Positions 24,328 through 53,731 of a stretch of 64,000 bases of DNA are shown one piece after another (the stretch's first letter is position 1; the number at the start of each line of letters is the position of its first letter). The notes below the pieces were generated by a model that saw only the letters and a program-made list of their open reading frames with translations, was not told the origin of the DNA and made no database searches. Origin of the DNA: Centroscyllium fabricii (taxonomy: Eukaryota); NCBI GenBank assembly GCA_051313645.2, contig JBNRSN020000003.1, positions 251,472,001 to 251,536,000 of the forward strand, given 5' to 3'. Position numbers and translations under genes: made by a program.

Positions 24328-26144
24328 TGTGAAGGAATAGCCATATTCAGAAAAATTCACCATCCTATGAAATATTCTGGCTTTAAAACATAACAAACTG
24401 GGCTTGGAAATTTGGAAGCCTCAACAATTTAAAGCTGTGAACAGCATACAGGCTTTTGAGATAAGATAAGTTGTTGACACTGAGACAATAGCCTTATTGA
24501 AGTAGAAGATTAGAGGTTCCAGGAAGTCTGCACCTTGGAAAGAACATAATGATATATACCCTGTTTACGTGTTTTAAACCAACACTTTGGAAAGAAACAC
24601 ATAAATTAAAGAAACATATTCCTTTGTAAAAATAACATCAAATGAAACACAGAGACAGGAGTCTGTAATATAACCAGTCGAGGTGTTCTAAATGCAAAAG
24701 ATACAACAGAAAACCTTGATAAGAATGACATCAACTAGATACATCTGCTCCACATTGTTTTTAGGATAAGCTTTGAACATCTAAAGGCAGAGACACAAGT
24801 CTGCTTGCTACAAGCTGATCTTACAGTAAGCGTAGCAGTGGTCAACAGAAACATTACTATAGATAATTAGCTTACATCAGCAGAAAACTTCAAAGGATAT
24901 ACAGGGACACAGCCCTGTATCCGGAAACCTCGGGGCCTGGCGGGTATTGGTTTTCGGATAATTTTGTTTTTTAGAGTTGGACCAGTGAGCATGCGCATTT
25001 CCGTGTTTGTGGCTCAGTTCGCAGTCGGAATATATATGAAATATCCATGAAAATAACTTTACCAAAGATGACATTTATCAACATACAACGATGGTCCTTT
25101 TTCAATTACTTTTAAACAAAGCGCGGAATCGTAGAGATAGGTACTGATTCTCCCACGGGCCCGGGAATATAGGCAATTCATTCAGAGGAAAATCCATGTT
25201 GTACCTTGGTGGAAAGATTACACAAGTGAAACTGCGGGTTGTGGTGAGCAGGATCGGTGATGCGGGCTGCACGGCTGGGACAATCGTTGCCAGGGAGATG
25301 CATAGCCTCAGCTCACATGGCGCGAGTACGCACGCTCTACAAGCGGGAACGGCATATCGGCCACAACAACAGAAAACGCTGGAGAAACTCAGCAGGCCAG
25401 GCAGCATTGGTGGAGAGAGGAGCAGAGTTGACGTTTCAGGCATGTCGGCCATTTGGAACAGGTGATCGCCCGTTTTTTTCCTGCTGTGGAGGTGCCGGTG
25501 TTGGACTGGGGTGGACAAATGTAAGAAGTCACACAACACCAGGTTATAGTCCAACAGTTTTATTTGAAATCACAAGCTTTTGGAGCACTGCTCCTTCCTC
25601 AGCACGGCATCAACAGCACAAACTCAAGGTAAAAACATATTTTTTCTGCTGCAGCTGGTCACTTCCTTCAATTTATTTAAGAAAAGAATGGTTATTTTGG
25701 CGCAACCCTGGACTTCGGTTTTTGGAGCTTTTCGGTTTTTGGAGTTGCGGATAAAGGATTGTGTACCTGTACCACGGCACAAACAGTATAAAAATTGGAC
25801 TTTCAAATGGGAAGACAGATTTGCTTGAAGGGGCAAAGCGATTCTCAGGCTTCAGAGGCAAGCTCTGTAAGTCTTTAACTCTTTGTATCTCGGAGATCAA
25901 GGTACTTGTATTTGATTTTGGTGGATATCCTGGAATAAGTTTAAGAAATGTAAAAATCTGGAGGATGGTAACATCTTCAGTCTGTTCCTTTCCTTTAGGC
26001 AGAGATAGTCTGGACCTTTAGCCCCAATTAAGCATCTTAAAGAATTCAGCTACCTCTAACTTTAGTTGAAAGTGAACGTCTGGGGAATACACCTGATCTG
26101 GGGTAGCCTGAAAGGGGCTAGGACTAGTAATAATTCCTTTCACA
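24328..26144 (+). repeat. Solo LTR of the foamy-like ERV family, with internal deletions and a MITE insertion
   Basis: TGTGAAGGAATAGCCATATTC ... AATTCCTTTCACA. Colinear with the reverse complement of 45004-46463. TATA at 25787, GTAAGT at 25867. No clean TSD. Confidence 0.8.
24902..25769. mobile_element. Tc1/mariner (Tigger/pogo-like) MITE carrying Penelope end fragments
   Basis: TA-CAGGGACACAGCCCTGTATCCG ... CGGATAAAGGATTGTGTACCTG-TA. The empty site is visible in the other LTR copy at about 45672. Internal 25370-25605 matches the Penelope ends at 7200-7290 and 57240-57320. Confidence 0.8.
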
Positions 26145-27000: not shown

Positions 27001-27968
27001 TGTAGATAAGTAGTTGATATTGTCTTGGCCAGTAGTTATATTAAATAGATGCAAGGAGAGATCATGCAGCAAAAGAAACATGCTCAGAATTGTTGCCAGG
27101 GTGGTGACATTTTTTTATCAGCATTCTTAGCCAGCTTGTCAGGGCCTCGTTCCCCGTTATCTTAGAACACCAATCAGGATAGGACTAAGGATACAAGGAG
27201 AAGACAGGAAAACCAACCGACAGTGCATTGGTAAAAACATGTATTTGGTTGGGGAGAGTGAACAGCATTAGGAGGTGTTTTGGGAGTCAGTATCTGTACT
27301 ACAGGATTGAATTTTTATTTTAGTGTTGTGGCATCATAGAATTATAGAATCATAGAATAATACAGCACAGAAGGCGACCATTTGGCCTATTGTGCCTGTG
27401 CCCACTCTTTGATAGAGCAATCCAATTAGTCCCACTTCCCTGCTCTTTCTCCATAGCCCTGCAAATGATTACTTTTCAAATATATATCCAATTCCCTTGT
27501 GAAAGTTACTATTGAATTTGCTTCCACCATCCTTTCATTGTCAGCTAGAAGCTGGGGCATGAATGAGCAGGACAAAAAGGCTTAGTTTGGTCCTTTGGCT
27601 TTTTTTGTTTTTGGAATGTGGGAAACATTGGCAAGGCCATATTTATTTGCGAGGCCACTTCAGAGGGTATCAAGAGTAAACCACATAATATGAACTGGAG
27701 TCACATGTGGCAGTATCCTTTTCCCATTAGTGAACCCGGTGGTGTTTTATAACAATACGGCTTGGATGGTTAATTTTCTGCTGCTAGCCCATAAATTGCT
27801 GTACTGATTGATTTAAATTTCACAGCTTGCCATAGTAGGATATCAACTTGCAACTTCTAATCATAGATACATAGATACATAGATACATAGATGATAGGAG
27901 CAGGAGTAGGCCATTCGGCCCTTCGAGCCTGCTCCGCCATTCAATGAGATCATGGCTGATCCTTCAGT

Positions 27969-37127: not shown

Positions 37128-38181
37128 ATGGGAGCCATTATCTTCCTTCCCTTCTTGGAATTACATGATCTCTACTAGGAGCAGATGCGGCTACAGCAGC
37201 AACAGCAGCAGCCACACCAGGAGCCACCTCACCAGCAGCAGCCACACCAGGAGCCTGATGCTCCTCCGGACCCTCCGGGGGCAGCATGGGCCAGAAGGCA
37301 TCGGCGCATCCAAGGCCATCACCGCAGAAGATACCCCCCAAACAGGGTCTACAGAGTCCGAGCCACCTACCTCAATATGAGTGAGCGGCGGTGCCAAAGG
37401 CGACTCCGACTTTCCCAAGAGGCAGTCACAGACATCTGCGCCATGCTGCAGCAAGAGCTGGAGCCCAGGACACCAGGTAGACATGCCTTACCAGTGGCCC
37501 TCAAAGTCACCACCGCACTCAACCTCTTTGCCTTGGGCTCATTCCAGGGATCAGCAGCCGACATCAGCGGAATCTCCCAGTCGGCTGCACACTCCTGCAT
37601 CACCCAGGTAACCGGTGCCCTCTTTGCCCGTGCCCACAATTTCATCCATTTTACCATGGATCGCGCAAGTGTGAGGGCCCGAGCGATTGGAATGGCTCAT
37701 CTGGCAGGCTTCCCAAGGGTACAGGGCATCATTGACTGCACACATGTGGCCCTTAGGGCACCCAACAACAACCCAGTAGCTTTTCTCAACCGCAAGGGCT
37801 TCCATTCACTCAATGTTCAACTGGTGTGTGACCACAACAAGGAGATTTTGCATGTGTGTGCCAGGTACCCTGGCAACTGCCATGACTCCTTTGTCCTGCG
37901 CCAATCAACCTTGCCTACGCTCTTCACACCGCCGGACCAGCTTCCGGGGTGGCTACTTGGTGACAAGGGCTATCCCCTCAGGACTTGGCTCATGACGCTG
38001 GTCAGGAGGCCAGCTAATGAGGCTGAGGAGAACTACAACTCCACACACATCTCCACCAGAAGCATTATAGAGCACACCATCGGTGGTTTGCTGTCAACTT
38101 CCCAACATGGCCCAGCGCCGTGGCTTGCAACCTCCTGACCAAGACCTGCCTCCTCGCATACCGTCCTCAGGTGAGGAGGAG

Positions 38182-38216
<35 letters not shown>

Positions 38217-38340
38217 GGAGGAGGTAGAGGAGGATGAGGATGGGGTTGCTGCCGCTCGACCCCAGCCAGCGCCACCATTACGCGAGAACGTTGCTGGCCG
38301 GCAAGCAAGGATGGAGCTCATCCTTGCAAGATTTTATTAG
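37128..38340 (+). pseudogene. Harbinger DDE transposase (HARBI1 family)
   Basis: [53 protein letters not shown]. Early stop at 37176, a deletion/frameshift near 38080, and an acidic C-terminus. Confidence 0.92.
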
Positions 38341-39799
38341 CCTACTCAAGCCAGCTTGTGCTACTCTCCTCATCCTAACAGCGCATCCTCACTGACACAC
38401 TCCAATCAGTTCCACAGCTCATACCTGCATGAGTCCCACTACTGTAACGACATCTGTGTGCCGGGGGGGGCGGTTTGGGGGAGTGAGCTTCTGGGGCTGC
38501 CAAGTGCCTGTGACTGCTTTCTGCACTTGCGCATGCACCCACGCCCCTGACGCACCACACATTTCTTTGATGCACATGGTCCCATCCAAACATCCATCCA
38601 TCCATCACATGCAATAATGAACACAGAAACAATAAAGGTTGCAATTGCAACATGCTGTTTAGTAATGACATTAAGCAAACATGGCCACATGCATGGTTGT
38701 TCAACTGATGACCAGCACTTAGGAATCACTGCATTAATGATGTCCCAGGCATCTCAGCTGAAGACATGCAGGTTCAAACGGTCAAAATGTCATTATCAGC
38801 AATGCTGAACCTCAGCCAGTCCAGTTTTGAGCTTGCAAGTTCATATCCATTGTCAATCATGTTCCCCACCTCTCACGTGGCGCCCCTCCCTTTTCAAGAG
38901 TGACACATTCTGACAAACCATTGACTCTGCTGTGGGGGTCACAGTGAAACCGGGTCCCTGATCAGCCAATCGAAACGTACATCCCCCCGAAGGTTGTCAA
39001 CGCCTTCATTTGAAAAACGGAGAACAATAGCAACCATATATAGAAAAATTATACAAGCGCTGTCGGGTTTCTTTATGCGGGTGGGTCTGCTGTGTTTCCA
39101 AATGTCCTGGAGGTGCTTCAGGGCAATGCATCCGGACATGAGGCAGGAGCTGTGGAGGGCGCTGAGGGTCAATGTCTGGTGGGTCTTCACCCTCCTGACC
39201 TTGTTTGATGTGTGAGAGCTGAGGCATGATGGCACCATGGCTCCTTGACCATTCCATCAGGGTCAGGTGCTGTGAGGGGCCAGCTGCAGCCAGATGATGT
39301 TGGATGCGTGGGTACTTTGGCCAGTTGGCCCATCTTTTCTTTGCCCACCTCCATCCTTTTAAAGTTTTGTTCGTGTTAAAGTTCAACCTTGAGGCATGTT
39401 TGCTGGTGTTGCGAAAACATTAGGTGGTTTGTTCAGTTAAATTGGTCATCGTTTGGACCACACATCATTCATACAGTCCCTCTGTTCGCTGGTGTGCGTC
39501 ACCATGAAGGTAGGCCGATTTCAAGGAGCTTCACTCTTAACCATTGAGCTACAGTCTGTTATTGAACCTCATGCGTCTTGCTGTAAGTCCTTCGGCCATG
39601 TTGCATCTCCATCATTGCATATCTGTGAGGCCTGCCCGATTGCTGTCCAGCCTGCATAAGGCTTCAATGTGGAAGAGCCATTCGCAAGATGTCAGACATG
39701 ACAACTGCATCAGGTGGCACCTGGAGTGGTCTGCTGTCTGCCACAGCTATGGACACCTAAATGTCTGTTACACTAACACCCAAGTGACTCCCGTTGTGC

Positions 39800-41781
39800 C
39801 TAAGGGTGCTTAAGTTTTCTTTTGCGAGTGCTCCTACGTGTCGGTGGCCCTGTGGTGTCAGAAGATGTGGAGGCCCCCTGCTGAGTGCCCTGCTGCTCCT
39901 GTCTGGACACCTTTGGCGGTCGTACTCTGGGCCGGTGAGCCTGTGGGGGCTCGCTACCAGTCTGCTGCTCCTGCGGCTGGGCAGGGTATGAGACATCCAT
40001 CTCAGGTGCATGGGGACTCCGGCGGGCCTCTGACCGAGGGCTTTGCAGTGGTGTGGATGTGGGAGTGCTTGGAGAGGAGCCCCCACTTCCTTCAGCTGCA
40101 CCACCAACCTCCCTCACATGGGTCACCTCCCCCTCAGCACCAGCAAGTGGCTGGACAGCACCTTGCTGCACTTCACGGGGGCCATAGGGACCCGTTTCTG
40201 CAGTGGAAGTCCTACTGAGAGCGACTTCCACGAAGGTCTGGTTCCTCTGCTCAATAGATGCCACTCGCTACTCAAGAGATGTGAATCTATTGTGGACAGT
40301 GCCCATGTCTTCGAAAGGCTGGCGACTTATGTGCTCGATGGCTGTGGCCATCCTCTCCTCCACGGTCGTTATCCTTTCCATGGTGGTTGCCATCCTTTCC
40401 ATGGTGATGCGATCATGCACCACTGACTCCGCAAAAGAGCTTCTCATGCTTGCAACAGACTCCTCCATTCGCATGACACTCGCAGCTACCTGGGAGACAA
40501 AACCTGTCAGAGACGCCTGCATCTGTGTCTGGCGTCCCATCATGTGTCTTCTGCCTGATGGATCCAAAGGTGCTGGGTCGACATGCAGCTTAGCTAAACT
40601 GGCAGAGTCCTGCGTCCTCCGACTAAGACTCTGCAATGCTGTCCCTGTCTCCACAATCTGCTGAGGCTCACTTGTGTTGTGTGAATCACACGGTGACAAG
40701 TCAGATGTAGCTCTAGGGGGGCCCACCGAGGTGCTAATAGCTGCGCTGGTGCCGGGTGGAGTCTGTGGTGCTGACAGTGCACCCTCAGGTTCCTCTGAGG
40801 ACTGAACAGGGGCGACCTCGTCGTCAGATCTGCTTGTCCGTCCAGCTGCGGATGGGCCTGTGGGGCAGTAAAGGAAGAGGTTAGAGATATGTCAGCAAGG
40901 TTACATACAGATAGCATTCAGGAGCTGAGCAGAGCTGCCTCTGCAGTGCTTTTACATTCATCGTGCCAGTCTCATGTGTTAGTTCTGAGAGAAAAAATGA
41001 AACCATGCTGTCACCAGCTTGAGATTGCATGCCTGCCTCGCTGTCATCCACTCCCGGGGCTTGCCCCTCACCAACGAGGTCTAGAACAGCCTCCTCCCAG
41101 GTGGTGAGCTGTTGGATGGTGGGGGGTCCTCCTCCAGTCCCGGCGCTGTGCCGCTTGTTGGAGGCTGTCTTTTCCTGCATTGAGGGAGAGAAGTAGAGGT
41201 TGAGTGAGAAGGAAGGAGTTGGTGCAGCGAGTGACCAGCAAAGTTTGTTGGAGGGTGACAAAGATGCAGTGAGCCTGCAAGACCAAAGGCCCTCCCTGTG
41301 TGTTGCCAGATGTACAGCAAGCATGAGAGTGAGAGGGAGTGTGAGGGCTGAATGGAGGGAAAGGACCGTGAGTGTGAGCATAGATAGAGAGGGAATGGGT
41401 AAGGTTGCTTGGATGTGATGGGCAAGTGGGATGTGCAGGAAGGGAGTGGTGAAGATAAGTTGTGGTGAGGAGAGGTGAGGGGGATGAGATTGAGGGTGAG
41501 GGGAAATGAATACTTACTTTTGCAGTGCAATGAAGGTCATGCAATCTCTTGCGACACTGGAGCCAGGATCGGGGTGTTGCACCCAATGAGCTGACCTCCT
41601 CAGCCACCTGCTGCCATGCAGCCTTGGTCTGTGAGGGAGGTCTCTTCCTCCCTGAGGAGGGGAAGAGAACCTCCCTATGGGTCGTTGCCCCCTCGAGTAA
41701 TGCGTCGAGGGAGGCGTCATCAAATTTGGGGGCGGGTCGTCCCCTCGCGCTGCCCGATGCAGCACCCTCACGCTCTGCCAT
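39800..41781 (-). pseudogene. Harbinger Myb/SANT (trihelix) DNA-binding protein, three exons (41781-41518, 41174-41015, 40857-39800)
   Basis: PKF..ASLDALL...W..VA..VS....R.W.QCRKR..DL; GT-AG junctions; TGGGPP; coiled coil; C-terminal RRSTRKRK; in-frame stop at about 40268. Confidence 0.85.
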
Positions 41782-42169
41782 CCTACTGAAGGCTTGTAGA
41801 ATGCTGAGCAGTGCGGGAGGCGAGCTGTGTTCATTAAAAGAAACCTGAATTCTGACGTCATACTGTGCGACTTTCTGACTGGAAATTGGTGATTGAGAAG
41901 GCTTCCCACAGGCGGGGAATTAATTTGGTACTTAGACAAAAATCTCGTGGGAAACGCAGGCACTTTATCGGGCGGGACAAAACCCCGCCCCGACCAATCC
42001 CCGCCATTCTGGGAAAATTCCGGTCAATGAAACAACTTTCACAACATTGAACTTGAAGATCTCTTCAGCACAACAGCAAACACAGTACTTATGATCTCAT
42101 AATTAGTATTTTCCACCTTACTTTAATAAAAAAATAATCCTTGCCGTCATTGTAGAATTTGTTTCACCC

Positions 42170-45003
42170 ACCTGAAGCTGCACAGGCCAGAAGGCGCCAG
42201 CGCATGGAAGCACATCGCTGCAGGAGATACCCCCAAAACAGGGGTTACAGACAGGATGAGCTACCTCAACATGACTGAGCAGCAGTGCAAAAGGAGGCTT
42301 AGATGTGGAGGTGCCAGTGTTGGACTGGGCTTAGACCTTCGCGAGAGGTAGTGGGTGACACCTGCGCAATGCTGCAGCAAGACCTGGAGCCCAGAGGAAC
42401 GGGTGGACACCCCTTACCAGTGACCGTCAAAGTCACCACTGCACTCAATTTCTTTGCTTCAGGCTCATTCCAGGGATCAACAGCAGACATCAGCAGCATC
42501 TCCCAGGCGGCCGCACACACTTGCACCATGCAGGTAACCAATGCCCTTTTTTCCATCGTGCACAATTACATCAACTTCTCCAAGGATCAAGCAAGTATAA
42601 CTGCGCATGTGGTTGGACTTGCTAATCTGCCAGGCTTTCCAAGGGTGCAGGGCATCATTGACTGCACACATGTGGCCCTTAATCCAGGCATTTTTGTCAA
42701 CCACAAGGGCTTCCACTCGCTCAACGTGCAGCTGGTGTGTGACCACAAGTAGGGAATTTTGCATATTTGCACCAAATACCCTGGCAGTTGCCATTACTCC
42801 TTCATCCTGCACCAGCCTAGTGTGCCTCCGCTCTTCAGTCTGCCAGACCAACTTTTCGGATAGCTACTTGGAGACAAGGGCTATCCCCTGAAGACATGGC
42901 TAATGACAGCATTCAATAGGCCATTCAATGAAGCTGAGCAGCACTACAACTCCAGCCACATTTCCACCAGATCCATAATCGAGCAAACCATCGGCTTGCT
43001 GAAGATGCGATTCAGATGCCTTGATAGATCAAGTTGAGCCCTGCAGTACTCAGCAGCCAGCGCCTCCAGAATCATCGTGCTCTGCTGTGCACTTCACAAC
43101 ATGTAACAGCATCGTGGCTTGCAGCTGCCTGAGGTACAAGTGACTCATCGCATAGCCTCCGAAGATGAGGAGGTGGAGGAGGAGAAGGAGAGTGACAACA
43201 AACAGCTTGCAGAGGCGCATCAACCAGTGCCAGCAGCACACAAGCAAACTGCTGCCCTGGATGCAAGGGACACACTCATTTTGGCCAGATTTGCTTAGCA
43301 TATCCAATCAAACACTTTTGCCTTGCACCTGCTTACCAGAGCATCAACAATGGACAAGAACCTATGGATTCCTATCACTCTGACCACCATACTGACAATT
43401 GCAAGTTGCCCTAAGCCCTCAATGTGGAAGTCCCATTTGCAAAATTACACAGGCCACAACTTCAGCAGTTTGCCATCAAGTCTTTTTTATCACAAACTCA
43501 CAGATGGCTTTTCAAAAATAAACACAACGGAACAACCACGTGACTACCCTTGTGGCTACTTGTGCTTTATCTTCCTCTTACGTGTGCTCCTACATAATGC
43601 TTCCCCTGTGGCTTCAGCAGATTTGGAGGCCCCTTGCTCACTTCCCTGCTGCTCCTGCCTTGACACCTTTAGCGGGCGTCCTCTGGGGTTGTAAGCCCAT
43701 GAGGGCTCGGCAACAGTCTGCTGCTCCTGCGGCTGTGCAGGGGCTGAGACGCCGATCTCAGTTGGGTGAGGACTGTGGTGGAGCTCTGCAGTGGCATGGT
43801 CATGTGAGCACAAGGAGGGGAGTCCCCACTTCCTTGTTCACTGCCACCAACATCCCCCTCATGGGTCAGCCCCACTTCAGAGCTAGCAAGTGACTTGACA
43901 GCACCTTGCTGCTCTTCAGGGGCGCCATGAGGATCTATTGCTGCACTGGCAGTCCTATTCCAGAGGACTTGCCTGAAGCTCTGGTTTCTCTGCTCAATAG
44001 CTGCTCATTGCTCCTTAAGAGATGTCAGTCCATTCTGAACAATTACCATGTTTTCAATACCCTGGAGACTACGTTCCTCCATGACCGAAGCATTCCTTTC
44101 CTCTACCGTAGCCATCCTCTCCTCTATGGTAGCCAGACTTACCACGGAGGTAGACATCCTTTCCACGGAGGTTTCTATTCTTTCTCTGGTGATGAGTTGA
44201 TATGCCAATGCCTCCACAAAGGCCCTGCTCATGTTCATGATGGACTCCCCCACTCTCTCCACACTCATAGTGACCCTGGAGGCAAAACTTGCCAGAGACT
44301 CCTGCATCTGTTCCTGAAGTTGCAACACCGCTCTCGTTCTGGATGGACCCGGAGGCACAGGGTCAACATGCAGCGGCGCCGAGCTGGGAGAGTCCGATGA
44401 GAACTCTCCACTGCTGTTCCTGTCTCCACCATCTGCTGATGCTCAAATATGAGCTGTGATGGTCCAGGTGACTACTCTACTCTATTTCCAGAAGGTCCCA
44501 CTGATGTGTGAGTGACTTTGCTGGTGTTGGGTCCGCTGAATTCTGCTGACGCTATGCCCTCAGAGGTTTCAGCTTCCTCTGAGGAGTCTGTTGGCTCAGC
44601 TGTTCCTCCTGGACAGTGGGGAGGGAGGCTGTTGATGGTCCTGTGGGGGAATAAAGGAAAGAGGTAGACATGTGAGATAAATGTTGCATGCACATTGAAT
44701 TGTGCAGATGATCATAAGTCAATCTGTCAGAGCATCAGAATTAATATGAGTCACTCATGCAATGTCAATGAGAGAGATGAAAAATTATTCTGTCAGCAAT
44801 TTGCTCTGATGCACCCATCTGTCCATCCCCCACTTGCGCTTCCTCCTCCACTCCCATGATATGCAGGGCCACCTCCTCTGCAGTGGTGTGCTGGGCTATT
44901 GAAGGTGGTCTCCTCCTGTCCTTGCCCACTCCCTCTTATTGTGGGCACTCTTTCCCTGCAATGAGGGACACAAGTGGAGTTTGAGTGAAAATGAAGGAGT
45001 GAG
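42170..45003. mobile_element. PIF/Harbinger transposon 2, decayed (transposase about 42200-43299 +, Myb gene 43556-44960 -)
   Basis: [33 protein letters not shown] with stops; HNKREWARTGG and RSTRKRKIK. Cut in the Myb intron by the foamy-like LTR. Confidence 0.88.
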
Positions 45004-46463
45004 TGTGAAGGGATAATTACAAGTCCTAATCCTTTTCAGGCTACCCCAGATCAGATGTATTCCCCAGACATTCACCTTCAACTAAAGTTAGAGATAGCCG
45101 AATTCTATAAGATGCTTAATTGGGTCTAAAGGTCCAGGCTATCTCTTTCTAAAGGAAAGGCATGATGTAAAGATGTTACTGTCTTCCAGATAGCACTTTT
45201 AATAAGTTTAACTAGACTGTAACCTTCTGGATATTATGAGGGTCTGGAAACCCCCATCATGAGAACACTACAACTCCTTACAAAAGATTGTACAGAAATT
45301 GACTTTGTGAGTTTGTTACAGAAGTGCTCTGTGAGACAATTCTAAAAATATATAGATTTATTTAAGAGCCGACATGCAGTTAACAGCTGTTGAGTCAATC
45401 GCAACATTAACAGTTCAAAATACAAATTGCTTACATTTCTTATTCTCAGAGATCCTTATTCTCAAATCTTAATTTCATACATTTTTACATTTCTATTATT
45501 CTTAATCCAGAATATCCAGCAAAATCAAATAAGAGTACCTTTTTGATCCCTGAGCCTTAAAGAATTAAAAACTTACAGAGCGTGCCTCTGAAATTAAGAA
45601 TCGCTTGCCCTTTCCAGCGACCTCTGACTTTCCATCTGAAAAGCTCTATTTTTATACCTTTTTTTAGTGGTTTATCCTTTAAAGTTTTCTGCTGATGAAA
45701 GCTAATTATCTCTCATCATCCTCTGTTGAATTATTTTCTAATCTTATTATCAATTTAGCTGTTGACTCTCGGAATCCTGTCTGCTGTATAAGCGTTTCAA
45801 AACTTATCATACAAAACAATATGACAGTAGTATTTATTTGATGGCATTCTTATCGAAGGTCTTCCATACAATTCTAAAATCACTTCTGCTGTTTGAAAGC
45901 AGACGTCATGTTTACTAACTGTTCCATTTTTAATACAAACACAATGTAATTGCTTGGTGTATCTATTGAAGTAATATCTGCAAAGTCTTCAGTAGGTATC
46001 ATATTTACAACATGTAAATCAGATCCACTTCAACCAGGGTGTTTGTTGCATTTATTAGCTACTTCAAATGGTTGCATATATAATCGTGCTTCCTGTTTCT
46101 CATTTGATGTTACTTTTACAAAGGCACATGGTTTTTTAATATTCTGTGATTCTGTTCGAAGTGTTAGTTTTTAACACTTTACTTGGGCATTGCTATTATT
46201 TTGTTTCCAATGTTCAGGCATAGAGGAACCTCCAACTCTTTGCTGCAATAGGGCTTAGCATTAACAATCAATTCCCATTTCAAAAGCTTGTGTGGTGTTT
46301 AAAGCTTTAGTGTTAACACTTCATTTTATCTCAGAAGCCTGTGTTGACAGCCTGTGTCACCGAGGCTTTCCAGACTTTTAAACCCAATATGTCATGTATT
46401 AATAATATCAGAAATGTGTTCATAAGTTAGTGTATCTCCTGGAATATGGCTTTTTCCTTTACA
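45004..46463 (-). repeat. 3' LTR of the foamy-like element
   Basis: TG..CA with short terminal inverted repeat; TATAAAA at 45656; GTAAGT at 45576; AATAAA at about 45362; homologous to 24328-26144. Confidence 0.82.
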
Positions 46464-47090
46464 CCGCCCTCTTGACCAAAGGATGAGCTCATAACATCTG
46501 GGAAGAGTTTGGTCAATGATACTAATAAGGTTACGATAGCATATTAATTTCATGAGATGCACAATCATATGCTACATCAAAATTACTTTGAAGTCATCCT
46601 GGGACAACGTTTTGCCTTATTTTAAATTGAACACAATTTAGGAGGATGATAAGTACATAGGCTTGTTAAGAGCGAAACAACATGTACTTAGAATGTCCAA
46701 TCGGCAGATGTACGTTCCATAGAGGTGAGTTATTCATACGAGTCAAGGAGACGTCAGTTGAACTAGTTGAAGCTTGACACGCTAACCCTTCGATCCGGCA
46801 TATGTACAGATGCGCATTGTCGTAAAGGTCTTGCCAGGCACTCAGTTGATTCCTTCTTCATCCGTTGTGTCTTCCTCCTTCGTTGAAGTAACTCATTGAT
46901 CTTTCCTTGTTTCGGTCATTGTTTTTCACAAATCGAATTGCTGATGCGTTGCCAAGCAACGTGTGGACGAGCCGGCGACACCATCTGACTGACCGTCGTC
47001 AGTAATTCGATCGCATCCATTTCCTGTGTCGTGCTCCAAACTGGGTCTTTAAAGACAGTGTACGACTGCACCTTGTATTGTTCCTCCTTT

Positions 47091-47790
47091 TCAGTATCCT
47101 GCAGGACATCTTTTGATATTGTCTATGGAGACAGTTTTAAGAATATGCTTGCCATTCAACTGGTTAATATGCATTTGAACTGTTCTTTTGTTAATAACAG
47201 CGTGTATTTTAACAGGTTTTTTCCACTTCAGTCTTAAACCAGGTTTCTGCTTGAGCTTCTTTTCCTGGACCCATTCTCCTACTATGGGTTGCCATGCTTT
47301 ATTTGTCAATTATTTCTGCCTATTTGCTATCCTTATCCTCTGATCAATTTGCCAAATCTCCTTTGTTACTTCTTTTTTTTTCTTTTTCTAACTGTCGCTG
47401 TTGGGTCAAGGACTCAGAGTGTGTAGAGGCAATAAAAGAACTATGGATAAGCGGTGCATGCACCTCAACCCCATGCATCAGATAATATGGAGTTTATGGG
47501 GAAACTGTCCCTGATACAGATGTGAGCACATTATTGAGTGATAGCTGCACCTCCGGAATGATGGTGGTCCACTTAAACCCCTGATTCTCAACAGTTTGAC
47601 CAATAGCTTTTTTCCTTCCAAGTTTTCACATTCCACCAGCCCTGCTGATTGCGGATGACGTGCCGTGCTGTGCACCAAGCCAATCCCCGTTTGATCGCAG
47701 TAGCCTTTGAAGACCTTTGATACAAAGGCTCTGCCTTTATCAGAGTGTAAGATTTTGGCTGCAGTAATTGTTGTGTTTGTACCTTTCTAC
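47091..47790 (-). pseudogene. Foamy-type integrase (core and C-terminal domain), frameshifted
   Basis: KILHSDKGRAFVS..G..HSTARHPQSAGLVE.EN..KKLLVKLL..KWTTIIPEVQLSLNN..TPYYLMHG and WQPIVGEWVQEK..LRLKWKKP..VINKRTV..TVSIDNIK. Confidence 0.87.
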
Positions 47791-48573
47791 ACAACTACAT
47801 AAAATAATAAAGCAGCAGAGACTGAGAGCAACTTCAAGAGGTCTTTACTGGTTAACTGGAACTGCAGTACTGATGATACAAATCATGTGGTCTAACATAG
47901 AAAATAAGAGCAGGAGTAGGCCATTCAGCCCTTTGAGCCTGCTCTGCCATTCAATTAGATCATGACTGATCTTTCAGATTCAGTACCCTATCCCTGCCTT
48001 CTCCCCATATCCCTTTATCCCTTCAGCCTGAAGAAATATATCCAACTCCTTCTTGAATATATTTAGTGAACCGGCCTCCACCGCCCTCTGTGGCAGAGAA
48101 TTCCACAGGTTCACCACTCTCTGGGTGAAGAAATTCCCCCTCCTCTCAGTCCTAAATGGCTTTCCCCTTATCCTTAGACTATGGCCCCTGGTTCTAGATT
48201 CCCCTTTCATCAGAAACATCCTTCCTGCATTCAGTCTGTCCAGGCCTGAAAGAATGTTATAGGTTTCGATGAGATACCCTCTCAATCATCTGAACTCCAG
48301 TGAGTATAAGCCCAATCAACTCAATCTCTCCCCATACGTCATTCCTGCCATCCCAGGTATCAGCCTGGTGAATCTTTGCTGCACTCCTTCAATGGCAAGA
48401 ACGTCTTTCATCAGATGAGACGACCAAAACTGCACAGAATACTCGAAATGTGATCTCACCAATGTCCTGTAGAGCTGCAGCAAGACATCCTTGTTCTTAT
48501 ATTCGAACCCTCGTGCTACGAAGGCCAACATACCATTTGCCTTCTAAACCTCCTGTTGCACCTGCATGCTTAC

Positions 48574-48802
48574 TGTAATGATATTGAGACTTCCGGCAGG
48601 AAATCGGATGAACTCTGCTTATGAACTTCCAGTGACATCACGTCCTGTACATGTCACTTCCTGTGTAGTAGTATAAATTCTGCTACTATTCAGTCTGAGA
48701 TAATGCTTCTCTATGTAAATATGTTAAAACTCTCAAATCTGTAAATAGCTGATTAAAGCTTTGCTTAAGGTATTTGATGTGTAAGTCACTTTTGTCAGAT
48801 CA
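48574..48802 (+). repeat. Solo LTR related to element D, inside CR1 copy 2
   Basis: TGTAATGATATTG..AGATCA; TSD CTTAC on both sides; shares GTACATGTCACTTCCTGTG, TATAAA and GATTAAA with the D LTR. Confidence 0.9.
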
Positions 48803-49972
48803 CTTACCTTCAGTGACTGGTGCACAAGAACACCCAGATCTCTTTACACTTCCCCATCTCCCAATCTATTGCCATTCAAATAATTATCTGCCCTCACATT
48901 TATCCACATTATAGTGCATTTGCCATGTATCTGCCCAATCCCCCATCCTGTCCAAACTGCATTGGAGTTTCTCGACATCCTCCTCACAGCATACCCTCCC
49001 ACCCAGCTTTGTGTCGTCTGCAAATTTAGAGATATTACATCCAATTCCCTCATTCAGATCATTCATATATATTGTGAACAGCTGGGGTCCTGGGACCGAT
49101 CCTTGCGGTACCCCACTAGTCACTGCCCGCCACTCAGAAAATGACCCGTTTATTCCAACTCTCTGTTTTCTATCTGCCAACCAGTTCTCTATCCAAGCCA
49201 ATACCTTGCCCCCAATACCATGAGCCTTAATTTTGCATGCTAATCTCTTATGAGGGACCTTATCGAAAGCTTTCTGAAAGTCCAAATACACGACGTCTAC
49301 TGGTTCTCCCCTATCTGTTTTACCAGTTACATCCTCAAAAAAATCCAGTAGATTAGTCAAGCACGATTTACCTTTTGTAAATCCATGTTGACTCTGTCCG
49401 ATACTGTCACTGTTTTTCAAGTGTACTGCTATTACATCTTTAATAATGGACTCCAGCATTTTCCCCACTACCGATGTCAGGCTTACTGGTCTATAATTTC
49501 CCACTTTTTCTCTACCCCCTTTTTTGAATAGTGGGGTAACAATAGCTACTTTCCAATCCATGGGCACTGTTCCAGAGTCTATCGAGTTCTGGAAATTGAT
49601 CAGCAATGCATCTGCTCTCTCCAGAGCCACTTCCTTAAGTACCCTAGGATGTAGATTATCAGGCCCTGGGGATTTGTCGGCCTTCAATCCCTTCAACTTC
49701 CCCAACACCATATCCCTGCAAATATTGATTTTATCAGTTCCTCCCTCTCATTAGTCCCTGTGTTTCCCAACATCTCTGGGAGGTTATTTGTGTCCTTCTT
49801 TGTGAAGGCAGAACCAAAATATGTATTTAATTGGTCTTCCAGTTCCTTGTTCCCCATTATATATTCCCCTGACTCGGACTGCAAGGGACCAATGCTTGAT
49901 TCCACTAATCTTTTCCTCTAAACATATCTATAAAAGCTTTTGCAGTCAGTTTTTATGTTCGCCGCAAGCTTA

Positions 49973-50375
49973 CATAGAAACATAGAAGATAGGAGCAGGA
50001 GTAGGCCATTCGGCCCTTCGCGCCGGCTCCGCCATTCAATGAGATCATGGCTGATCATCCAAACCCAGTAACCTGTCCCTGCCTTCTCCCCATATCCCTT
50101 GATCCCTATCGCGCCTGCACCGGCACATATCCCACCCTATCCCCGTAACCTCACATATTCAATCCCCCTAACACTAAGGGTCAATTTATCCTGGCTAATC
50201 AACCTAACCCGCACATCTTTGGACTGTGGGAGGAAACCGGAGCACCTGGAGGAAACCCACGCAGACACGGGGAGAATGTACAAACTCCACACAGATAGTA
50301 CCCGAGGCTGGATCTGAACCCGGGTCTCTAGTGCTGTGAGGCAACAGTGCTAACCACTATGCCACCGTGCCGCCC
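49973..50375 (-). mobile_element. HE1-like V-SINE with a CR1-derived 3' tail
   Basis: Head GGGCGGCACGGTGGCATAGTGGTTAGC..CCCGGGTTCAGATCC, V-domain, tail nearly identical to the CR1 3' UTR; splits CR1 copy 2. Confidence 0.9.
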
Positions 50376-51534
50376 TTTCATAATCTATTTTCCCCCTCTT
50401 AATGAATCCCTTTGCTGTATCCTAAGCTGCTCCCAATCTTCAGGTCTGTTGCTTTTTTTGGCCAATTTATATGCCCTCTCTTTGGATTTTATGTTATCTC
50501 TAATTTCCCTTGTTATCCACAATTGAGTCACCTTTTTTGGTTTATTTTTATGCCAAAATGGTATAAACAAGTTCTGTAATTCTTCCATTCGATCTTTGAA
50601 TGTTTGCCATCGTCCATCCACCGTCAACCCCCGAGCGACACCACCCAATCAATACTACCCAACTCGCGTCTGATACCATCATAGTTCCCTTTACTTAAAT
50701 TCAGGACCTTAGTCTCTGAGTCAATTTCTTCAATTTCCATCTTAAGTGAGAATTCGATCATATTATGATCGCTCCGACCACAGGGGCCTCGCACAACAAG
50801 ATTGCTAATTAATCCTTTCTCATTGCATAATACCCAGTCTAAGATTGCCTGATCCCGAGTTGGTTCCTCGACATATTGGTCCAGGAAATCATCTTGTATA
50901 CACTCCAGGAATTCCTCCTCCACAGTATTGTTACTGATTTGGTTAGTCCAATCTATATGTAGATTAAAGTCACCCATGATGACTGCTGTGCCCTTATTGC
51001 TTGCTTCCCTGATTTCCCTTTTTATGCCATCCCCAACCTCAGCATTACTGTTTCGGGGTCTATACACCTCTTCCACTAATGTTTTCTGCCCTTTTGTATT
51101 TCTCAGTTTGACCCATACAGATTCCACATCATCAGAGCCAATGTCTTTCCTTACAATTGTGTTAATCCCCTCTTTAACCAGCAATGCTACCCCACCTCCC
51201 TTTCCTTTTTGCCTATCTTTCCTGAATATTGAATACCCCTGGATGTTGAGGTCCCAGTCCTGGTCACCCTGGAGCCATGTTTCCGTAATTCCAATCATAT
51301 CATATCCGTTAACCTCTATTTGCGCTGCTAATTCATCCACCTTGTTACGAATGCTCCTTGCATTGAGACACAAAGCCTTCAGGCTTGTTTTTCTAATGCT
51401 CTTAGACCTTTTAGAATTATTATTTACTATGGCCATGTTTTATTTCCACCCTTGATTTCTCTGACTGCCACCTTTGTTTCTCTCCTTCCTGTCTTTTGCT
51501 TCTATCCTTGTTTCCCTTTCCTTAGTCTCCCTGC

Positions 51535-52238
51535 TACTTGCTGTCAAGGCAGTGCCAAGAAGGTTCACTAGGTTAATTCCGGGGATGAGGGGGCTGACAT
51601 ATGATGAGAGGCTGAGTAGATTGGGCCTCTACTCATTGGAGTTCAGAAGAATGAGAGTCGATCTTATTGAAACATATAAGATTGTGAGAGGGCTTGATCG
51701 GGTGGATGCGATGAGGATGTTCCCAATGGTGGGTGAAACTAGGACTAGGGGGCATAATCTTAAAATAAGGGGTTGCCATTTCAAAACTGAGATGAGGAGA
51801 AACTTCTTCACTCAGAGGGTGGTGGGGCTGTGGAATTTGCTGCCCCAGAGAGCTGTGGAAGCTACAACATTGAATAAATTTAAAACAGAGATAGACAGTT
51901 TCCTGGAAGTAAAGGGAATTAGGTGTTATGGTGAGCGAGCAGGTAAGTGGACGTGAGGCTAGGTTCAGATCGGCCATGTGATCTCCTGGACCAGTTTTTG
52001 ATCGCCTAGATGGGTCGGAGAGGAATTTCCCAGATTTTTTCTCCCAAATTGGCCACTGGGTTTTTTATCTGGTTTTTCACCTCTCCCGGGTGATCACATG
52101 GGTTTGGGCGGGATGGAAAGTAAAAATAAAATTGAGGTTAGGATCAGATCAGCCATGATCTTGTTGAATGGCGGAGCAGGCTCGAGGGGCCGATTGGCCT
52201 ACACCTGCTCCTATTTCTTATGTTCTTATGTTCTTATG
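51535..52238 (+). mobile_element. 5'-truncated CR1 3' fragment
   Basis: RRFTRLIPG..DLIETYKI..TRGH..RNFFTQRVV..WN; (TTCTTATG)n tail. Confidence 0.9.
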
Positions 52239-53731
52239 ACCCGCTTGTCCTCCGCAGTCAGGCCATCAGGGATCGATGACCCACTCTCCCTCTGGGCAAC
52301 ACGCTTTGGAGCTGCCCTCCCCGCCTTGCTTTGCAGCACCCCGCTGGGGCCTGGAGCACCCTACACCTCCCACCACTCGTCACTCCCCTGCATGGAAGGC
52401 GGCCTCCCCCTGTCTCCATGGCCTTCGTCGGCAGATGGTGGCCGTCCTGCTGCTTCTTCCTCTTCCTCCTCCTGGCCTTCTGACTCTGTCTCCTGGGAAT
52501 GTTGAGGGGCCACCACCTCAGCTGATGATTCACCATCTGAAACAACAGAGGTACAAGACTGAGTTTAGCGTGAGGACAAGGTGGTAGTGTGAGGACAAGG
52601 TGGCAGCAAGGGGGCAATGAGTGCAGGCACTGACTTCTTTGGATGGAAAGTGCAAAGGCTGCTGTTGTGAGGAGCAAGAGGAAGGAGAGAGGAGAGGAAG
52701 ATCGGCAGAATGGTGTCGGCATCTCCTGTGGCGACAGGAGCACTCAGGCAGTTGCCCATAATCCACTGCACGCACACTTCCAGGGGACTTAGCTCCACCA
52801 GATCAGGTGGACCGCCACCCGTGCGGTCTTGCTCACGTCGGTTGTGAGCCAGTTTCGCCTGCAAGGAAAAGGACAGAATCTGAGTTACAGGACAGCAAGT
52901 ATTTAATCTGAAGTGCCTGCTATGGCTGAATAGCCCTTACTGCATGCAAAGTGTCTTTCAGGAAAAGCCTATGCAAAACCCTGCAGCAACAGGCTGTTCA
53001 AGGACAGTGACCCTGAGGAATATTATGTTCTTGCTGAGTGTTCTGCATTGGGGATTTAGAACCCTCTGGCCATACAGTTACGTTGAGATGGAGAGATATA
53101 CAAAAATATACTCACCCTGACACCCGTAGTGAGGTCGTTGAATTTTTGTCAGCACTGATAGAGGGTCCTGGGCACCATGCTCTGGCTGCTGAAATGGCAA
53201 ACCACTTCCCTCCACAGTCACCTGCACTCCTGTGGCACAGGTTTCCTGCCACTTTCAGCAAACAAAATGGCTCTGCGAGCCTCCACTGCAGTGAGCAGGG
53301 CCTTCAAGGCCCTGTCACTAAATCTTTCAGCCCTCTCCCTGGGACGCCTCTCCATTTTATCAACGTTGGGGCACAGGTGTGGCCACAGCAGCAGTCAGAG
53401 AGGAAGTCAGCAGGATGTGCCTGGAATCGGAGGAAGTCCCTCCCCCTTTAAGAGCTGGCCGGCGCCAGCGTGTCTGGCCAGCCGCTGACTCACAGATGAA
53501 GCGCTGCGCCCGTGCTGCACCCGCGCTCGCCGCTAGCATCGCCGCTAGCATCTGCCTTTTCGCCGTTTGCACCCTAAGAGTGCTGTGCAGTGCCTGATTT
53601 AGTTCTGCAATCTCCTACCAGGGCGCAAAAGCCAAATATTGCGGAGCCGGGTGCAGCTTTGCACCCAGCGCTAATTTTAGCGCTACGCCCACTTTACCAC
53701 CCGGAAACGTGCACGACCCAATTTTTCCCCC
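52239..53731 (-). mobile_element. Harbinger 3 fragment: terminus plus Myb/SANT pseudogene (exon 1 53355-53116, exon 2 from 52858)
   Basis: MERRPRERAERFSDRALKALL..QC*QKFNDL|AKLAHNRREQDRTGGGPP, with the same intron position as Harbinger 1; terminal CAATTTTTCCCC. Confidence 0.8.

What the first reader, a model, noticed from the sequence alone, without database searches (positions are those of the whole stretch)
45004..47790. Endogenous foamy-virus-like element in a probable shark genome
Seen: the minus strand encodes KILHSDKGRAF..HSTARHPQSAGLVE.EN..KKLLVKLL..KWTTIIPEVQLSLNN..TPYYLMHG and WQPIVGEWVQE..LRLKWKKP..VINKRTV..TVSIDNIK. Known (recalled, not looked up): prototype foamy virus IN reads PKVIHSDQGAAF..STPYHPQS..KVERKN..KRLLTKLL..KWYDLLPVVQLALNN..TPHQLLFG and WSPVVGQLVQER..LRPRWHKP..VLNPRTV..TVSIDNLK. 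The C-terminal match is spumavirus-like and unlike the Gypsy integrases nearby. The long 1.46-kb LTR and purine-rich PPT fit. Foamy-like ERVs are known from some fishes, but this lineage may be undescribed (inference). It is hidden in the ORF track as three short ORFs.
Basis: partly seen in the sequence, partly recalled or inferred. Interest (0 to 1): 0.88.

Follow-up and report, generated by a model that had tools for sequence, protein, structure and literature searches.

The report
Envelope-less shark foamy retrovirus family
This is the broken tail end (integrase plus terminal repeat) of an old, many-copy foamy-virus relative in a probable shark genome; no copy examined has an envelope gene and its gag and pol genes lie in one reading frame on either side of a stop codon, so it likely spread inside germ cells and likely made its enzymes by reading through that stop, unlike known foamy viruses.

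Summary
Observation confirmed. The minus strand holds a 5'-truncated, broken foamy-type integrase (47763-46842), a short non-coding stretch, a polypurine tract and a 1458-bp TG...CA LTR (46463-45006). It belongs to an abundant family ('A') whose fuller copies show a Lys-type PBS, spumavirus Gag domain, protease, YVDD reverse transcriptase, RNase H, integrase and 4-bp target duplications. RT and IN trees place it next to mammalian foamy viruses (UFBoot 100 and 99). Foamy-related ERVs in sharks are already published, so the headline is not new. Not found in the papers I could read: (1) no env in 47 of 47 copies spanning integrase to LTR; (2) gag and pol in one frame, separated by a TGA followed by a hairpin in 74 of 100 listed copies, pointing to readthrough instead of the foamy spliced pol mRNA; (3) that codon is TGG in 25 of 100, on both main haplotypes; (4) sub-lineages with shared in-frame RT and RNase H deletions, with which the window copy groups. 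A younger env-bearing family ('B') in the same genome has the same TGA/TGG switch. Readthrough and retrotransposition are inferred. The key shark paper (CFEFV) was unavailable.

The parts
47577..47763 (-). Integrase catalytic core, 3' half (second Asp and the Glu of D,D-35-E); first Asp and everything upstream are missing
47370..47576 (-). Integrase core end and core-CTD linker, frameshifted against the first piece, in-frame stop at 47496-47494
47094..47309 (-). Integrase C-terminal SH3 domain (Pfam SH3_11, 40.8 bits)
46842..47093 (-). Hydrophilic tail of Pol, broken by stops here; ends at the stop shared by 32 of 37 copies
46474..46841 (-). Non-coding stretch where env and accessory genes would lie in a foamy virus
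46464..46473 (-). Polypurine tract abutting the LTR
45006..46463 (-). 3' LTR, 1458 bp, TG...CA; TATA-like box at 45656 (14 matching copies) and AATAAA at 45362 (28 of 30 aligned copies)
45002..45005 (-). Four flanking bases, the expected 3' target-site duplication; its 5' partner is lost
   Evidence: family TSD is 4 bp
24328..26142 (+). Separate solo LTR of the same family (other sub-type), split by an insertion at about 24903-25786; 4-bp flanks agree at 3 of 4 bases

Best explanation
The window holds the decayed 3' end of one copy of an old, abundant foamy-lineage endogenous retrovirus family that has no env in any copy examined and that likely multiplied by retrotransposition inside germ-line cells. 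Shown: the layout LTR - Lys-type PBS - gag - pro - RT - RNase H - IN - about 0.35 kb non-coding - PPT - LTR; 4-bp target duplications; gag and pol in one frame with a single junction codon 29 codons before the protease Asp, TGA in most copies and followed by a predicted hairpin; sub-lineages sharing in-frame deletions of RT and part of RNase H. Inferred: Gag ended at the UGA and Gag-Pol came from readthrough (as in gamma/epsilon-like retroviruses), not from a spliced pol mRNA; RT-less copies were packaged and reverse-transcribed with enzymes supplied in trans; the TGG form (always-fused Gag-Pol) arose repeatedly and was probably carried along by complementation and recombination with TGA copies. 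The window copy probably descends from the RT-less, RNase-H-deleted branch.
For: Foamy identity: RT 251 bits to PFV RT against 92 for Ty3 and 69 for MLV-type; IN 168 against 33; Gag passes Pfam Gag_FV_central (36.7 bits, cut-off 30), with 135 matches in the genome, and the 10 loci fetched are all family A; trees. No env: integrase CTD to LTR is 564-653 nt in 40 of 47 distinct copies and 756-1289 nt in 7, and none of the 47 stretches matches the family B env or accessory ORFs. Abundance: 1058, 286, 111 and 9210 first-look candidates for IN, gag-PR, RT and LTR DNA (not copy numbers); 158 genome-wide matches to the junction motif. Replication-era selection: shared variants are mostly synonymous in capsid (1 N/4 S), PR (0/3), RT (2/7) and connection (12/9), while singletons have w 0.75-1.19. 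One frame: commonest spacings 219 and 414 nt across the gag-PR interval; the other two frames are closed by 5 and over 20 near-fixed stops. Junction codon: 74 TGA, 25 TGG, 1 TGC among 100 listed matches (counted by hand); hairpin z -3.3 to -4.6 in four copies; no in-frame Met between it and the catalytic Asp in the copies printed. Deletions: RT deletion in frame in 7 of 9 stretches, RNase H deletion in 7 of 7; window copy groups with such copies, support 0.91.
Against: No RNA or protein data, so readthrough is untested and a spliced pol message cannot be excluded. Only tens of copies out of probably more than a thousand were read, chosen by similarity to env-less queries, so a rare env-bearing parent could be missed; the PF03408 search used a strict first look and scored 47 of 725 candidates. 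An env-bearing foamy-like family in the same genome could have supplied Env. Selection was not significant for Gag N-terminus, GR region, RNase H, IN CTD (p 0.08) or Pol tail, and counts are small. The third shared deletion is out of frame in 2 of 3 copies. Copy trees are star-like and weakly resolved. The protease does not match the foamy protease family.
Confidence: 0.7

Rival explanations
1. The TGG form is made by site-selective A-to-I editing of the gag stop in the element's RNA (as at the hepatitis delta virus amber/W site, recalled), and edited RNAs were reverse-transcribed into TGG copies; editing, not ribosomal readthrough, would then set the Gag:Gag-Pol ratio.
For: In 74 distinct copies the site is not associated with the markers of the two main haplotypes on either side (p 0.2-1.0), while 23 of 25 other non-CpG markers have a partner at p <= 1.3e-5. 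Other TGG-A and TGA-A sites switch in at most 2 of about 33 copies. The A faces a C at the foot of the hairpin and pairs when it is G. Neighbouring A's show 0-1% G.
Against: A 5' G neighbour is disfavoured by ADARs and the hairpin is short (my knowledge). One sub-group is almost all TGA (marker +75, p 3.5e-4), and TGG is commoner in RT-bearing (17 TGG/13 TGA) than RT-deleted copies (5/15) although they share the hairpin (sample enriched for TGG by design). In family B the switch follows lineage (9 of 9 copies with a 9-nt insertion are TGA, 16 of 16 without are TGG) and has no hairpin.
Confidence: 0.2
2. The family spread as infectious particles pseudotyped with Env from an env-bearing foamy-like helper, or from its own env-bearing parent not yet sampled, rather than by purely intracellular retrotransposition.
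For: An env-bearing foamy-like family exists in this genome. Shared RT deletions already prove complementation in trans. Foamy budding normally needs Env (my knowledge).
Against: Family B is far younger (LTR pairs 98.9-99.9% identical against 87-92% for A), shares no DNA similarity with A's element and no Gag similarity. No env remnant at the A locus in 47 copies.
Confidence: 0.2
3. The ancestral state was a stop-less fused gag-pol (TGG), and TGA copies are Gag-only derivatives that out-multiplied it through cis-packaging.
For: Intact family B copies have one 1741-codon gag-pol ORF, an unrelated public protein P0014 is a 1687-aa Gag-Pol, and RT-deleted A copies are mostly TGA.
Against: TGA is the majority (74 of 100) and occurs in RT-bearing copies on both haplotypes; it is followed by a hairpin in A and by C in B, both readthrough-type contexts; UGA separates gag and pol in several aquatic retroviruses (PMC13517186 section 4.1.2; PMC8278194 passages).
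Confidence: 0.15
4. It is a Ty3/Gypsy, lokiretrovirus or ERV-L/S-type element with a convergent or recombinant foamy-like integrase.
For: No env, same-frame gag-pol and a non-foamy-type protease signature are features of such elements. No named lokiretrovirus was in my trees.
Against: Gag, RT-connection and IN all point independently to foamy viruses; RT is 46-49% identical to PFV; separate connection and RNase H domains; 4-bp TSD.
Confidence: 0.03

Closest known systems
Mammalian foamy viruses (PFV, simian and feline FV; Spumaretrovirinae)
   Same: Gag central domain, GR/Q-rich Gag end without Cys-His box, YVDD RT, connection plus RNase H, IN with SH3 CTD, Lys-type PBS, 4-bp TSD, GGGTG-type PPT/LTR border, long LTR; nearest named relatives in both trees.
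   Different: No env, tas or bet; gag and pol in one frame around a UGA instead of a separate frame with its own start; protease not matched by the foamy protease family; very high copy number with non-autonomous derivatives.
CFEFV, cartilaginous fish endogenous foamy virus (Wang, Chen, Cui 2023, J Virol 97:e0181622)
   Same: Title seen in reference lists: shark-group endogenous foamy virus rooting vertebrate FVs, which fits the tree position found here. Content recalled only.
   Different: Unknown: text and sequences not held. Family A may be a member; whether env loss or the in-frame stop was reported could not be checked.
ERV-Spuma.0-Sca (small-spotted catshark; PMC10699275)
   Same: Shark spuma-like ERV with 293 elements; its table labels gag and pol ORFs both 'frame 3'.
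   Different: Has an annotated env and 866-bp LTRs, and groups with teleost FLERVs; family A falls outside the teleost clade.
CmiFLERV, NviFLERV, AciFLERV/AliFLERV and teleost foamy-like ERVs (PMC5512871, PMC5210030)
   Same: Foamy-like Pol, Lys/Asn PBS, 4-nt TSD, no zinc finger.
   Different: Full-length ones carry env and accessory ORFs; newt NviFLERV-2 has overlapping gag and pol by its coordinates; only pol is known for CmiFLERV; reported copy numbers are 9-23.
ERV-L (env-less class III) and XtERV-S, SSSV, ZFERV (UGA between gag and pol)
   Same: Works like them: env-less amplification (ERV-L) and in-frame UGA junction (PMC8278194 passages; PMC13517186 section 4.1.2).
   Different: Different clade: the frog class III proteins fall well outside the foamy group.

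Membership tests
Spumaretrovirinae / foamy clade | RT and Pol group with foamy viruses | tested here: met
   RT-connection tree, UFBoot 100 for A + B + P0014 + a catshark protein + mammalian FVs; FastTree 0.91; no coelacanth, caecilian, CFEFV or named loki sequences included
Spumaretrovirinae / foamy clade | Foamy-type integrase | tested here: met
   168 bits to PFV IN; SH3_11; sister to FVs at UFBoot 99
Spumaretrovirinae / foamy clade | Spumavirus Gag central domain, no Cys-His box, GR/GQR-rich end | tested here: met
   PF20672 over cut-off; no CCHC in one natural frame, G+R 20% and Q 12% in its last 110 residues
Spumaretrovirinae / foamy clade | 4-bp target-site duplication | tested here: met
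   8 of 17 solo LTRs perfect, 16 of 17 within one mismatch at 4 bp; none perfect at 2, 3, 5, 6 or 7 bp
Spumaretrovirinae / foamy clade | tRNA-Lys-type PBS | tested here: met
   9-12 of the first 12 bases match the intact family B PBS in 7 copies; assignment of that motif to tRNA-Lys is from my knowledge; bases 13-18 match less well
Spumaretrovirinae / foamy clade | GGGTG at the PPT/LTR border | tested here: met
   Seen by eye in 5 of 7 borders checked; the window copy differs by one base; the scripted count failed
Spumaretrovirinae / foamy clade | Pol in a separate frame, translated from its own start on a spliced mRNA | tested here: not met
   Same frame as gag, one TGA/TGG junction codon; splicing itself not testable
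Spumaretrovirinae / foamy clade | env gene | tested here: not met
   0 of 47 copies spanning IN to LTR have room for it or match env
Spumaretrovirinae / foamy clade | Accessory genes (tas/bet) and internal promoter | tested here: not met
   All three frames of the 3' non-coding stretch carry shared stops
Spumaretrovirinae / foamy clade | Foamy-type protease (Spuma_A9PTase) | tested here: not met
   Only weak generic retropepsin hits
Spumaretrovirinae / foamy clade | Late reverse transcription, DNA-containing particles, uncleaved Gag | not testable with these tools
   Needs virology
CFEFV | Sequence identity and clustering with published CFEFV | not testable with these tools
   Paper not held
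Ty3/Gypsy or lokiretrovirus | RT grouping with these clades | tested here: not met
   Gypsy proteins are outgroups; Ty3 RT 92 bits against 251; no named loki sequence available

The most novel reading that the evidence does not exclude
A shark foamy lineage next to mammalian foamy viruses became an env-less genomic superspreader and controlled its Gag:Gag-Pol ratio with a UGA/UGG switch at the gag-pol junction, set by site-selective RNA editing and frozen into a quarter of its copies; with family B it would show that Gag-independent spliced Pol, the hallmark of foamy viruses, is not ancestral to the clade.
Probability: 0.2. Interest if true: 0.88.

Novelty: new variant of a known kind. Interest (0 to 1): 0.62.

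Why it matters
Endogenous foamy viruses are described as rare and low-copy (PMC8922424 passage) and foamy viruses are defined by a Pol made independently of Gag. Here a close relative has no env, left at least hundreds of internal copies and probably thousands of LTR pieces, spawned RT-less parasites, and keeps gag and pol in one frame around a stop, like gamma- and epsilonretroviruses. Two foamy-like families in one genome show the same Asp-TGA/TGG junction. This makes the order in which foamy viruses acquired spliced Pol and Env-dependent exit testable, and the recurrent stop-to-Trp switch is a natural record of selection, or editing, on the Gag:Pol ratio.

Tried and rejected
1) LINE-mediated 5'-truncated retrocopy: suggested by falling upstream coverage, rejected for the window copy because its LTR runs through U5 to CA. 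2) A frameshift between gag and pol was an alignment artefact of a 67-nt gap in the ruler copy. 3) My interim reading of one stop-less gag-pol ORF was wrong: one search masked the junction column as CpG-like, and exposed the TGA majority. 4) Long stop-free +1 frame over the GR region as a hidden gene: explained by 5% T at codon position 2; a similar span over the Pol tail is not explained that way (23%) and shows no selection. 5) Family B env as A's env: no DNA match. 6) Shared deletions as splice products: junctions read as short repeats, and no consensus donor is shared by half the copies. 7) Gag fold: pLDDT 46.5, not searched; PDB sequence searches blank for Gag; Atlas hits uninformative. 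8) Protein database: IN 'longer' gave one Gypsy protein, RNase H-IN 'near' none; IMG/VR gave 0 loci. 10) Earlier scan notes: nothing. 11) Paper searches for env-less or readthrough foamy ERVs in sharks found no such report; four relevant papers were not held.

Full report
1. Observation. The three-frame translation shows every quoted peptide on the minus strand, split by two frameshifts and several stops. The window piece aligns to PFV Pol (77 bits) and feline foamy Pol (87 bits) far better than to the class III (38) or Gypsy-side proteins tried (29 or less), and its C-terminal part is a Pfam SH3_11 domain. Family homology begins at 47763; upstream lie about 130 unrelated bases and CR1-type LINE DNA. 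The LTR is 46463-45006, TG...CA, 1458 bp, preceded by a polypurine tract, with a conserved AATAAA (28 of 30 aligned copies) and a TATA-like box. No upstream part of this copy was found in about 46 kb. A second, solo LTR lies at 24328-26142.

2. The family. Searches of the window's own 7.2-Gb genome gave 1058 first-look candidates for the integrase DNA, 9210 for the LTR, 286 for gag-protease and 111 for RT (40 scored each; not copy numbers). Copies are about 83-93% identical and riddled with later insertions. The least interrupted copy (L074) has a 5.9-kb interior: PBS, gag, protease, YVDD RT, connection, RNase H, integrase, short non-coding stretch, PPT. Solo LTRs have 4-bp target duplications (8 of 17 perfect, 16 of 17 within one mismatch). 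Four LTR pairs differ by K2P 0.079-0.131, or 0.066-0.104 without CpG sites: 150-236 Myr at the 2.2e-10 rate assumed in PMC4422223, 22-35 Myr at the 1.5e-9 used in PMC10699275, so the age is uncertain sevenfold.

3. Placement. Natural open frames match PFV RT at 251 bits (Ty3 92, MLV-type 69) and PFV IN at 168 bits (next 33). A natural Gag frame passes Pfam Gag_FV_central; the genome holds 135 matches and the 10 fetched are family A. With tool-fetched references, IQ-TREE puts A in a UFBoot-100 clade with mammalian foamy viruses, family B, P0014 and one catshark protein, apart from teleost foamy-like and frog class III proteins; order inside that clade is unresolved (34). On integrase, A including the window copy is sister to mammalian foamy viruses (99) (12 of the chosen proteins lacked IN and were left out). 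The protease gives only weak generic hits.

4. No env. In 47 distinct copies spanning integrase CTD to LTR the distance is 564-653 nt in 40 and 756-1289 nt in 7; about 280 nt of it is Pol tail. Those longer ones I inspected carry insertions at different places, and none of the 47 matches family B's env or accessory ORFs. One further locus has a LINE inserted there. The foamy Env profile finds a different family, B.

5. Replication history. Copy trees are star-like with two main sub-lineages. Singleton changes are neutral (w 0.75-1.19); variants shared by 20% or more of copies are mostly synonymous in capsid, protease, RT and connection (p 0.02, 0.009, 0.003, 0.02), weakly so in IN core, and not in Gag N-terminus, GR region, RNase H or Pol tail (small counts; RNase H and IN counts inflated by shared deletions). 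Independent loci share the same RT deletion (in frame in 7 of 9 stretches, two of them duplicates of one locus), the same RNase H deletion (7 of 7) or a second RT deletion (1 of 3 in frame). Such copies can only have been made with RT supplied in trans (inference). The window copy groups with them at support 0.91.

6. Gag-pol junction. Spacings between Gag and protease landmarks are multiples of three in the commonest class and the other frames are closed. All frequent stops in the coding frame are CGA decay products except the Pol terminator and one codon, 29 codons before the catalytic Asp. Among the 100 listed of 158 genome-wide matches it is TGA in 74, TGG in 25, TGC in 1 (hand count). A hairpin follows (z -3.3 to -4.6), with the third base facing a C. 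UGA-separated gag and pol are known from SSSV, a zebrafish ERV and XtERV-S, whereas spumaviruses use a separate start in another frame (PMC13517186 section 4.1.2; PMC8278194 passages); newt NviFLERV-2 has the overlapping arrangement (PMC5512871 supplement). I therefore infer readthrough (about 0.7). In 74 distinct copies (enriched for TGG by choice) the codon is unlinked to the main haplotype markers, one sub-group is nearly all TGA, RT-bearing copies are 17 TGG/13 TGA and RT-deleted ones 5/15, and no general A-to-G excess is seen. Recurrent mutation with selection and recombination is my first reading; site-selective editing the second (0.2).

7. Family B. A young, env-bearing foamy-like family (about 13.5 kb; LTR pairs 98.9-99.9% identical) has Pol 36% identical to PFV and a stop-less 1741-codon gag-pol in several copies, yet 9 of 25 copies chosen by ORF length carry TGA-C eight codons before the protease Asp, tied to one sub-lineage. 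P0014 is a related 1687-aa Gag-Pol from another public source. The published catshark element lists gag and pol in the same frame without comment in the parts I read.

8. Literature seen. PMC10699275: part 1 of text, passages, supplement rows. PMC5512871: passages, section 6, supplement passages. PMC5210030: passages, section 14. PMC4422223: part 1 of 2. PMC8278194, PMC8922424, PMC2717909, PMC6001957, PMC10581153, PMC11468914: passages. PMC13517186: passages, section 4.1.2. CFEFV (PMC9972966), Chen 2021 (PMC8223930) and Magiorkinis 2012 (PMC3358877): titles in reference lists only; content recalled. Ten searches found no report of an env-less or readthrough-type foamy ERV in sharks, but the CFEFV paper and its supplements may bear on this.

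9. Verdict. A real foamy-lineage ERV fragment. Its kind is known; it fails canonical foamy membership on env, accessory genes and Pol expression; it works like an env-less, readthrough-using retrotransposon derived from the foamy clade. New variant of a known kind, interest 0.62.

Noticed in passing
G000 family B, e.g. L197-L198 (C811), L199-L200, L081-L086: Young high-copy foamy-like ERV: gag-pol, then a 570-codon ORF and a separate 436-codon ORF with a signal-peptide-like start matching the TM half of foamy Env (split env), then a 340-codon hydrophobic ORF and a 601-codon ORF; 725 first-look candidates. Its Gag does not hit Gag_FV_central.
   Followed up: partly
L247-L266 and loci: Family B has the same Asp-TGA/TGG junction as family A, but lineage-linked and only eight codons before the protease Asp; many B copies also carry deletions in pol.
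   Followed up: partly
P0014 (Logan, unnamed): 1687-aa single Gag-Pol related to family B, from another public source; context unknown.
   Followed up: partly
P0028 (Scyliorhinus torazame GCB66461.1): Predicted protein joining a foamy-like RT to a PRDM PR/SET domain; probably a gene-model artefact over an ERV.
   Followed up: no
window 37400-44800: Repeated Harbinger/PIF-like pieces: nuclease-like ORFs near 42303-42891 and Myb/SANT-like ORFs on the minus strand near 41068-41919 (names recalled, not tested).
   Followed up: no
window 27880-30320 and 47890-52240: Nested CR1-type LINE copies with endonuclease (50624-51439) and RT (48884-49747) frames.
   Followed up: no
C667 (L002-L004, L007), C1311 (L093-L095), C1045 (L237-L238): Family A copies multiplied by segmental duplication; counted once.
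   Followed up: yes
family A gag, 213 nt upstream of the junction codon: A second A/G dimorphism with weak, inverse association to the junction codon; lies in a purine run and may be an alignment effect.
   Followed up: partly
L166 (C711:247790001-247800000) and L160 (C1): Copies in which the interior jumps straight into the LTR, giving very short two-LTR elements.
   Followed up: no
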